This document shows, in pieces, positions 43-261 of a DNA stretch of 6,623 nt. How positions within the stretch are numbered: position 1 is the stretch's first letter; the number at the start of each line of letters is the position of its first letter. The translations under genes were made by a program, and so were the position numbers. The DNA is taken from IMG/VR virus record IMGVR_UViG_3300029181_000086. The stretch is one strand, 5' to 3'. The notes under the pieces are model-generated. The model was not told the origin of the DNA and made no database searches. It worked only from the letters and a program-made list of their open reading frames with translations. The DNA comes from a virus (Duplodnaviria > Heunggongvirae > Uroviricota > Caudoviricetes).

Positions 43-261
43 TCACAGTCCCCATTGTTTGTTCTTAAGTTCGATCTCCTCCTGGCAACTCGCACAAGTC
101 CGACAACCCTGAACAGCCAGGCGTCTTCGCTCATCTATCGGATCGCCACACTCACAACAATGAGTTGCGGATACAGTCTGGTAGTTCAGACGACGCATTT
201 TTATTGCTGTATTGCGCTGTAATTCTTCGATTTCTGATGCTGAATCAATGATGTCTGCCAT
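43..261 (-). CDS. TraR/DksA-family C4 zinc-finger protein (lambda Orf73-like, exo-xis region)
   Basis: 72-aa ORF MADIIDSASEIEEL... Contains CCEC-(17 aa)-CASC, with GDPIDERRR closely resembling the F-plasmid TraR segment CEAC-GNPIPEARRK...-CVEC as recalled. The overlapping + ORF 16..222 has no comparable motif. No strong SD upstream. Confidence 0.8.
   Translation of the reverse strand: MADIIDSASEIEELQRNTAIKMRRLNYQTVSATHCCECGDPIDERRRLAVQGCRTCASCQEEIELKNKQWGL

What the first reader, a model, noticed from the sequence alone, without database searches (positions are those of the whole stretch)
43..261. Prophage-encoded TraR/DksA-like zinc-finger protein, a probable RNA polymerase secondary-channel modulator
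The C4 motif and GDPIDERRR segment place this 72-aa protein in the TraR family. F-plasmid TraR and lambda Orf73 are reported to bind the RNAP secondary channel and mimic DksA plus ppGpp. An intact copy in a cryptic prophage could rewire host stringent-type promoter control if expressed.
Basis: partly seen in the sequence, partly recalled or inferred. Interest (0 to 1): 0.45.

Follow-up and report, generated by a model that had tools for sequence, protein, structure and literature searches.

The report
Lambda Orf73-type TraR gene in DLP12
This is an intact copy of the well-studied phage lambda gene orf73, whose small zinc-finger protein binds RNA polymerase and shuts down ribosome synthesis; here it sits in a decayed DLP12-type prophage that has lost the gene's native promoter, so the find is ordinary and the gene is probably silent.

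Summary
Window 43..261 (- strand) is a clean 72-aa ORF that passes the Pfam zf-dskA_traR threshold and hits PHROG 54 at 3.6e-26. It is 86-87% identical to phage lambda Orf73. It keeps every hallmark shown to matter for TraR/Orf73: DxxDxA (D3, D6, A8), CxxC-17-CxxC, R46/R47 and E64. A predicted structure matches RNAP-bound F TraR best. Lambda Orf73 was characterised in 2022 (PMC9239242): it binds RNAP, inhibits rRNA and r-protein promoters, complements a dksA-null strain when induced, but activates amino-acid promoters weakly if at all. The exact protein is already named "TraR/DksA family transcriptional regulator" and is seen on at least 1000 contigs. A near-identical gene occurs in 3299 of 5426 complete E. 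coli genomes. The locus is a DLP12-type cryptic prophage in which a deletion at about position 970 removed pL, N, cI and the rest of the early region. A terminator hairpin lies just upstream of the gene, and I found no convincing leftward promoter. The "rewires host control" idea therefore depends on expression that nothing here supports. Verdict: a new copy of a known, characterised protein. Low interest.

The parts
43..261 (-). orf73 ortholog: a 72-aa TraR/DksA-family C4 zinc-finger protein. It carries DxxDxA at residues 3-8, Cys35/38/56/59, R46/R47, E64, and extra Cys36/Cys53.
321..339 (-). Intrinsic-terminator-like hairpin (AGGGAGCT-ACA-GGCTCCTT followed by a T-run) between orf61 and orf73. 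It is identical to the published predicted terminator t2 of lambda and Phi24B.
   Evidence: scan; fold -16.3 kcal/mol, z=-2.6; PMC4195576 Table 4; exact match
312..344 (-). Sequence identical to the BPROM-predicted promoter p1 (TCATCA ... TTTTATTAT) upstream of orf73 in lambda and Phi24B. It is only a prediction: the -35 matches 3 of 6 and the spacer is 19-21 nt.
   Evidence: (PMC4195576)
360..641 (-). orf61 homolog in its full-length 93-aa form (PHROG 303), the upstream neighbour in the exo-xis block.
   Evidence: PMC8614690
652..843 (-). orf63 homolog (DUF1382, 63 aa).
   Evidence: PF07131, 109.6 bits; PHROG 292
816..970 (-). 5'-truncated orf60a (DUF1317) remnant. It contains the terminator-like hairpin t1 (934..912) and ends at the deletion junction near position 970.
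970..1190 (+). C-terminal remnant of replication protein P (about 74 codons), fused head-to-head to the exo-xis block. Everything between (exo, bet, gam, kil, cIII, N, pL, cI, cro, cII, O and most of P) is deleted.
   Evidence: PF06992 C-terminal positions 124-162
1187..1489 (+). ren, followed by emrE and the DLP12 genes. This is the context that identifies the element as a DLP12-type cryptic prophage.

Best explanation
Window 43..261 (-) is an intact ortholog of bacteriophage lambda orf73, a member of the TraR branch of the DksA/TraR family. By inference from lambda Orf73 and F TraR, the protein would insert its N-terminal helix, with the DxxDxA tip, into the RNA polymerase secondary channel. 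Its Zn-knuckle (R46/R47) would dock on the rim helices and beta'Si3, and its C-terminal helix on betaSi1. It would then inhibit rRNA and r-protein promoters without ppGpp and slow growth. Like lambda Orf73, and because it keeps the two extra cysteines, it is probably a good inhibitor but a poor activator of amino-acid promoters. At this locus the gene is a passenger in a decayed DLP12-type prophage. A deletion has removed its native promoter pL and the N/nutL antitermination system, and a terminator hairpin lies directly upstream. The copy is therefore most likely transcriptionally silent or nearly so. Its intactness is best explained by its small size, purifying selection acting on the family in active lambdoid phages, and allele exchange with those phages. 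Shown here: ORF, family, motifs, fold similarity, context and loss of pL. Inferred: RNAP binding, promoter effects and silence.
For: Family and orthology:
- Pfam PF01258 is above threshold.
- PHROG 54 gives 3.6e-26.
- Identity to lambda Orf73 is 87% over 71 aa, E=3e-47.
- Identity to F TraR is 31%, with D3, D6, A8, C35, C38, R46, R47, C56, C59 and E64 aligned to TraR D3, D6, A8, C37, C40, R48, R49, C58, C61 and E66.
- D3, D6, A8, C35 and E64 are invariant in 49 homologs. C38, R46, R47, C53, C56 and C59 are conserved in at least 90%.

Fold:
- The AF2 model has helix 6-23, a Zn knuckle and helix 57-70, with pLDDT 73.7.
- Its best PDB match is TraR in the RNAP complex, 6n57_M (probability 1.00, TM 0.57), followed by YbiI and DksA.

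Function of the ortholog (PMC9239242):
- Lambda Orf73 binds RNAP and inhibits rrnB P1 and rpsT.
- It complements a dksA deletion with IPTG, and the D3A/D6A double substitution lowers phage yield like an orf73 deletion.
- It is expressed from pL.
- It shows weak or no activation of thrABC, argI and rpoH P3.

Selection: dN/dS is 0.12-0.22 against the lambda and REL606 alleles.

Context and loss of pL:
- Phage homology stops at window position 970, where P' begins on the opposite strand.
- The DLP12 gene order matches REL606 and KFu019 at argU.
- There is a terminator hairpin at 339..321.
- No 9/12 sigma-70 site lies on the - strand in 1..1600.
- Only 5 candidates at 8/12 were found, against 8.3 +/- 3.1 in shuffles.

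Exchange with active phages: a 100% identical allele occurs in a more complete lambdoid prophage in strain HKUOPY1.
Against: No experiment has been done on this allele. It has 9-10 substitutions relative to lambda Orf73, clustered at residues 27-30, at residue 49 and in the C-terminal tail (61-72), which contacts betaSi1 in TraR. Activity could therefore differ in degree.

Silence is inferred only from the absence of consensus promoters, and weak or non-sigma-70 promoters would be missed. A published BPROM prediction places a promoter (p1) exactly in the conserved orf61-orf73 spacer, which is retained here base for base. In Phi24B, orf73 mRNA exceeded that of upstream genes after H2O2 induction.

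The gene stays intact across several independently decayed DLP12 variants (REL606, KFu019, this window). That is at least compatible with host-level retention.

The AF2 model is only of medium confidence: the N-terminal 30 residues have pLDDT 55-63.
Confidence: 0.85

Rival explanations
1. The gene is the same Orf73-type protein but is expressed in the cryptic prophage from an internal promoter in the orf61-orf73 spacer (the predicted p1), perhaps under oxidative or other stress. It has been domesticated by the host as a ppGpp-independent brake on rRNA and r-protein transcription.
For: The p1/t2 element is preserved base for base. In Phi24B, orf73/ea22 mRNA exceeded upstream exo-xis genes after H2O2 induction, which the authors attributed to p1 (PMC4195576). 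The ORF is intact in several DLP12 variants that lost the early region by different deletions. dN/dS is 0.12 between the window and REL606 alleles.
Against: p1 is only a BPROM prediction. Its -35 (TCATCA) matches 3 of 6 and its spacer to any -10-like hexamer is 19-21 nt. It overlaps the T-tract of a terminator. In lambda, orf73 mRNA is lower than that of the upstream genes. Expression of orf73 from a single-copy defective prophage cut plating efficiency about 10^4-fold (PMC9239242), so constitutive expression would be costly. K-12 DLP12 has lost the gene altogether. The low dN/dS can be inherited from active phages, and an identical allele exists in a more complete prophage.
Confidence: 0.1
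2. The protein is a DksA/TraR-fold zinc finger that does not act on the RNAP secondary channel. It might have another role like the uncharacterised chromosomal YbiI, or be a misfolding, inactive variant because of its six cysteines.
For: The best PDB sequence hit by E-value is YbiI (1.2e-5), slightly ahead of TraR. The TIGR02419 score is below its cut-off. The extra Cys36 and Cys53 were suggested to perturb folding of lambda Orf73.
Against: The YbiI match covers only the Zn knuckle (residues 31-67), whereas the TraR match is full length, 1-69. The DxxDxA tip, R46/R47 and E64 are all present. Lambda Orf73 has the same six cysteines and the same sub-cut-off TIGR02419 score, yet it binds RNAP and inhibits rrnB P1 as efficiently as TraR (PMC9239242).
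Confidence: 0.04

Closest known systems
Bacteriophage lambda Orf73 (exo-xis region; Gopalkrishnan et al. 2022, mBio, PMC9239242)
   Same: Identity is 86-87% over the whole length. The N-terminal 26 residues, including DxxDxA, are identical. It has the same six cysteines, the same ExxRL variant of the TraR ExxRK motif, and the same upstream neighbours (orf60a-orf63-orf61) and t2 terminator.
   Different: It is 72 aa rather than 73, with a divergent tail (EEIELKNKQWGL against EDLELISKQRGSK) and changes at residues 27, 29, 30 and 49. The downstream neighbour is a DUF4222 gene rather than ea22. The largest difference is that it is no longer connected to pL/N, because the early-left operon is deleted.
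F-plasmid TraR (PDB 5W1S, 6N57/6N58, 6PSQ-6PSV)
   Same: Same size class (72 against 73 aa) and the same three-element architecture: N-terminal helix, C4 Zn knuckle, C-terminal helix. D3, D6, A8, C4, R48/R49 and E66 equivalents are conserved. TraR is the best structural match for the model.
   Different: Identity is only 31%. There are two extra cysteines and L instead of K at the TraR K50 position. The lambda ortholog, unlike TraR, barely activates transcription in vitro. The gene is phage-borne, not part of a tra operon.
E. coli DksA (with ppGpp)
   Same: It has the same C4 zinc-finger globular domain and an acidic tip that reaches the RNAP active-site region through the secondary channel. 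The fold search recovers DksA-RNAP complexes 7khi and 5vsw. Orthologs complement a dksA-null strain.
   Different: It is half the size, with a single N-terminal helix instead of a coiled coil, and family members need no ppGpp cofactor (PMC9239242 abstract).
E. coli YbiI (PDB 2KGO), a chromosomal DksA/TraR-type zinc-finger protein of unknown function
   Same: The Zn-knuckle sequences are similar (E=1.2e-5 over residues 31-67).
   Different: The similarity is limited to the knuckle. YbiI is longer (88 aa), and NF008243 scores 42.8 bits against a cut-off of 96, so the window protein is not a YbiI equivalog.

Membership tests
TraR subfamily of DksA/TraR C4 zinc-finger proteins | Profile match to the dksA/traR C4 zinc-finger domain above the curated threshold | tested here: met
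   Pfam PF01258 scores 37.3 bits against a gathering score of 24.9. PHROG 54 gives E=3.6e-26 at full length.
TraR subfamily of DksA/TraR C4 zinc-finger proteins | NCBIfam TIGR02419 (C4_traR_proteo) score above its curated cut-off | tested here: not met
   The score is 53.9 bits against a cut-off of 59.7, full-length alignment, E=2e-14. As calibration, experimentally validated lambda Orf73 scores 54.7, also below the cut-off, while F TraR scores 80.5. The cut-off excludes the whole Orf73 clade, so this does not argue against membership.
TraR subfamily of DksA/TraR C4 zinc-finger proteins | CxxC-17-CxxC zinc-binding motif | tested here: met
   C35-E-C-C38, then 17 residues, then C56-A-S-C59, aligned with TraR C37/C40/C58/C61. 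C35 is invariant and C38, C56 and C59 are conserved in at least 90% of 49 homologs.
TraR subfamily of DksA/TraR C4 zinc-finger proteins | N-terminal DxxDxA tip motif (TraR D3, D6, A8), required for function | tested here: met
   D3-I-I-D6-S-A8 is present and invariant in 49 homologs. The requirement was shown for TraR, and the D3A/D6A double substitution impairs lambda Orf73 (PMC9239242).
TraR subfamily of DksA/TraR C4 zinc-finger proteins | Globular-domain arginines equivalent to TraR R48 (rim helices) and R49 (beta'Si3) | tested here: met
   R46 and R47 align with TraR R48 and R49 and are conserved in at least 90% of homologs. TraR K50 is replaced by L48, as in lambda Orf73 (PMC8614690).
TraR subfamily of DksA/TraR C4 zinc-finger proteins | Short (about 70-75 aa) architecture with a single N-terminal helix, Zn knuckle and C-terminal helix, with no coiled coil | tested here: met
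   The protein is 72 aa. The AF2 model has H6-23, a knuckle with a short H44-49, and H57-70 (medium confidence, pLDDT 73.7). The best PDB match is 6n57_M TraR, probability 1.00, TM 0.57.
TraR subfamily of DksA/TraR C4 zinc-finger proteins | Direct binding in the RNAP secondary channel and ppGpp-independent inhibition of rRNA and r-protein promoters | not testable with these tools
   This has been shown for F TraR and for lambda Orf73 (87% identical) in PMC9239242, and is inferred here by orthology.
Lambda Orf73 orthologs (exo-xis block of lambdoid phages) | High identity to lambda Orf73 and conserved synteny orf60a-orf63-orf61-(t2)-orf73 on one strand | tested here: met
   Identity is 87%. The neighbours are DUF1382/orf63 and PHROG 303/orf61, with the orf60a remnant and an exact t2 sequence. 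There is 95.7-99.1% DNA identity to lambdoid phages over window 1-970.
Lambda Orf73 orthologs (exo-xis block of lambdoid phages) | Transcription from pL with N antitermination | tested here: not met
   Homology to the early-left operon ends near window position 970, where the C-terminal remnant of P begins on the opposite strand. No exo, bet, gam, kil, cIII, N, pL or cI remains.

The most novel reading that the evidence does not exclude
The orphaned orf73 copy in DLP12-type cryptic prophages is transcribed from a stress-responsive promoter of its own in the orf61-orf73 spacer. It then gives carrier E. coli strains a ppGpp-independent way to throttle ribosome synthesis, for example under oxidative stress. 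That would be a domesticated phage regulator that K-12 happens to lack.
Probability: 0.08. Interest if true: 0.5.

Novelty: already known. Interest (0 to 1): 0.12.

Why it matters
It matters little beyond correct annotation. The protein family, its mechanism and its closest ortholog (lambda Orf73) are published. The exact sequence is already named in public databases and is common in E. coli. The one open point is whether copies stranded in cryptic prophages without pL are ever expressed. If they were, many natural E. coli strains (though not K-12) would carry an extra ppGpp-independent regulator of rRNA transcription. That would be relevant to strain differences in growth control, and to E. 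coli B/BL21, which carries a near-identical copy.

Tried and rejected
- I looked for the exact source and junction. No complete E. coli genome has the orf60a'/P' junction as one collinear piece. A 36-nt junction probe found nothing in the GTDB species-representative collection. The precise deletion is therefore strain- or lineage-specific, and I did not pursue it further.
- I looked for literature on the DLP12-resident copy. The terms 'DLP12 + TraR', the protein accessions, and 'cryptic prophage + TraR + secondary channel' returned nothing relevant.
- An Rfam scan of the whole window at gathering thresholds gave no RNA family.
- I considered a YbiI-type identity and rejected it. The match covers only the knuckle, and NF008243 is far below its cut-off.
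- I considered the antisense 68-aa ORF 16..222 (+) and the 31-aa ORF 268..363 (-) and set them aside as mechanical ORFs. The first lies wholly antisense to the conserved gene. The second spans the terminator hairpin.
- I tried to find a promoter on the - strand. The tool's 9/12 scan found none. My 8/12 scan found 5 weak sites, fewer than in shuffles. The published p1 prediction has poor geometry.

Full report
**Observation**

Window 43..261 on the - strand is an uninterrupted ATG-to-TGA ORF of 72 codons. Its product is MADIIDSASEIEELQRNTAIKMRRLNYQTVSATHCCECGDPIDERRRLAVQGCRTCASCQEEIELKNKQWGL.

- Pfam PF01258 (zf-dskA_traR) scores 37.3 bits against a gathering score of 24.9.
- PHROG 54 'DksA-like zinc-finger protein' gives E=3.6e-26 over residues 1-70.
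- In the PDB it matches YbiI (knuckle only, 1.2e-5) and F-plasmid TraR (full length, 7.7e-5).
- NCBIfam TIGR02419 (the TraR subfamily model) aligns end to end but scores 53.9 bits, below its 59.7 cut-off.
- As calibration, lambda Orf73 scores 54.7, also below the cut-off, and F TraR scores 80.5. The cut-off excludes the whole Orf73 clade and does not argue against membership.

**What it is**

The reference lambda record does not annotate orf73. The ORF is nonetheless present between ea22 and orf61 (L001 1593..1814, - strand, 73 aa). The window protein is 86-87% identical to it (E=3e-47). The first 26 residues are identical.

The differences lie at residues 27, 29, 30 and 49 and in the last dozen residues.

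The three-way alignment with F TraR (31% identity) places window residues against TraR residues as follows:

| Window | F TraR |
|---|---|
| D3, D6, A8 | D3, D6, A8 |
| C35, C38, C56, C59 | C37, C40, C58, C61 |
| R46, R47 | R48, R49 |
| E64 | E66 |

In an alignment of 49 homologs down to 61% identity, D3, D6, A8, C35 and E64 are invariant. C38, R46, R47, C53, C56 and C59 are conserved in at least 90%.

An AlphaFold2 model built on that alignment has medium confidence (pLDDT 73.7). It shows helix 6-23, a zinc knuckle and helix 57-70. Its best PDB match is TraR in the E. coli RNAP cryo-EM complex 6n57_M (probability 1.00, TM 0.57). YbiI and the DksA-RNAP complexes follow.

Pairwise dN/dS against the lambda and REL606 alleles is 0.12-0.22, which is the signature of a protein-coding gene under purifying selection.

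**What is known about the ortholog**

Gopalkrishnan et al. 2022 (mBio, PMC9239242) purified lambda Orf73 and four other TraR homologs.

- Lambda Orf73 inhibited rRNA and r-protein promoters about as well as TraR, both in vitro and in vivo.
- It slowed host growth. Plating efficiency fell about 10^4-fold when it was expressed from pL in a defective single-copy prophage.
- It raised phage yield 3- to 4-fold.
- The D3A/D6A double substitution lowered phage yield to the level of an orf73 deletion.
- Unlike TraR, it activated thrABC, argI and rpoH P3 weakly if at all. The authors suggest that its two extra cysteines (TraR positions 38 and 55) disturb the globular domain that contacts beta'Si3.

The window protein keeps both extra cysteines (C36, C53) and the ExxRL variant of the TraR ExxRK motif noted for Orf73 in PMC8614690.

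**Context**

Window 1-970 is 95.7-99.1% identical to the exo-xis block of many lambdoid phages. On the - strand it contains:

- a 5'-truncated orf60a;
- orf63 (DUF1382);
- a full-length 93-aa orf61 (PHROG 303);
- the hairpin that Bloch et al. 2014 (PMC4195576) predicted as terminator t2;
- orf73.

At about position 970 this block abuts, head to head, the last 74 or so codons of replication gene P on the + strand. Then follow ren, emrE, ylcJ, ybcK, ybcL, ybcM, ybcN, ninE and ybcO. That is the gene order of cryptic prophage DLP12 at argU, as in E. coli B REL606 and strain KFu019.

Everything between orf60a and the end of P is gone. That covers exo, bet, gam, kil, cIII, N with nutL, pL, cI, cro, cII, O and most of P.

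Other DLP12 variants have lost the same region by different deletions:

- KFu019 has orf60a'|O'|P.
- REL606 has a methyltransferase fragment|P'.
- K-12 MG1655 has xisD'|exoD'|peaD'|renD::IS3 and no orf73 at all.

The exact junction seen here occurs in no complete E. coli genome of the collection as one collinear piece. It also occurs in no GTDB species representative.

**Can it be expressed here?**

In lambda, orf73 is a pL-operon gene that depends on N antitermination (PMC9239242; PMC4195576). Its mRNA is lower than that of the genes upstream of t2. In this window pL and N are deleted, and every gene upstream of the block is on the opposite strand, so no read-through can enter.

- The t2 hairpin (339..321; -16.3 kcal/mol, z=-2.6) lies 60 nt upstream of the start codon.
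- The consensus scan finds no sigma-70-like site on the - strand in 1..1600.
- A laxer 8/12 scan finds five weak sites, against 8.3 +/- 3.1 in shuffles.
- The only published candidate is the BPROM-predicted p1. It is preserved base for base, but its -35 matches 3 of 6 and its spacer is 19-21 nt. Its sole support is higher orf73/ea22 mRNA in H2O2-induced Phi24B.

I therefore rate the copy as probably silent. This is an inference from sequence, not a measurement.

**How common, and is it new?**

The exact protein is in the public collection on at least 1000 contigs. It is named 'TraR/DksA family transcriptional regulator' (UniRef A0A0A6RTR9).

A megablast of the 219-bp gene hits 3299 of 5426 complete E. 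coli genomes. Of the 30 listed records, sampled evenly down the ranking, 29 carry that name. The thirtieth is a partial match (44% of the query) named 'TraR/DksA C4-type zinc finger protein'.

One 100% identical allele sits in a more complete lambdoid prophage (exo, bet, gam and a cell-division inhibitor gene present) at a tRNA-Ser in strain HKUOPY1. This suggests the DLP12 copy exchanges alleles with active phages.

About 667 genomes carry at least 80% of the whole window. Nothing about the protein departs from the characterised Orf73 clade.

**Verdict**

This is a correctly spotted but already known gene: an Orf73-type TraR-family RNA polymerase secondary-channel regulator. Family, motifs and fold are supported by tests run here. 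Mechanism is inferred from an 87% identical, experimentally characterised ortholog. The speculative part, rewiring host stringent-type control from a cryptic prophage, lacks any support for expression, and loss of the native promoter weakens it.

The residual novel reading is autonomous, stress-responsive expression with host domestication. I give it a probability of about 0.08. Interest is low.

Noticed in passing
window 360..641 (-): orf61 is present here as a single 93-aa ORF (PHROG 303, E=1.3e-42). In reference lambda the same coding sequence is split into orf61 (61 aa) and a 60-aa ORF in another frame. The canonical lambda gene is therefore the truncated, frameshifted form. The literature (PMC8614690) already notes that lambda Orf61 looks truncated compared with Stx phages.
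   Followed up: partly
window ~968-972 (junction of orf60a' on the - strand and P' on the + strand): This deletion junction joins the exo-xis block head to head with the last 74 or so codons of P. No complete E. coli genome and no GTDB representative has this exact junction. Other DLP12 variants (KFu019, REL606, K-12) lost the same early region through different deletions, which indicates repeated independent decay.
   Followed up: partly
window 795..1190 (+): This 131-aa GTG ORF is a chimera. Its N-terminal part is antisense to orf63/orf60a, and its C-terminal 74 residues are the end of replication protein P (PF06992 positions 124-162, below threshold). It is a deletion artefact rather than a gene, and related genomes annotate it as a P pseudogene.
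   Followed up: yes
window 912..934 (-) and 321..339 (-): Two terminator-like hairpins coincide exactly with the predicted terminators t1 and t2 of lambda and Phi24B (PMC4195576 Table 4). Four terminator-like sites were found in 1..1600, against 1.5 +/- 1.2 in shuffles.
   Followed up: partly
L004 (NZ_CP019961.1 strain HKUOPY1) 4001..4219: A 100% identical orf73 allele lies in a more complete lambdoid prophage (a cell-division inhibitor gene, gam, bet, exo, orf60a, orf63 and orf61 present) next to a tRNA-Ser. The same DUF4222 gene lies downstream. This suggests module exchange between DLP12-type remnants and active lambdoid phages.
   Followed up: no
window 1557..6616 (+): The rest of the window is the standard DLP12 cargo and nin region: emrE, ylcJ, ybcK (serine recombinase family), ybcL (PEBP/Raf-kinase-inhibitor-like), ybcM (AraC-type), ybcN, ninE and ybcO. 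It is about 99% identical to many E. coli genomes. In this window there is no IS3 in ren, unlike K-12.
   Followed up: no
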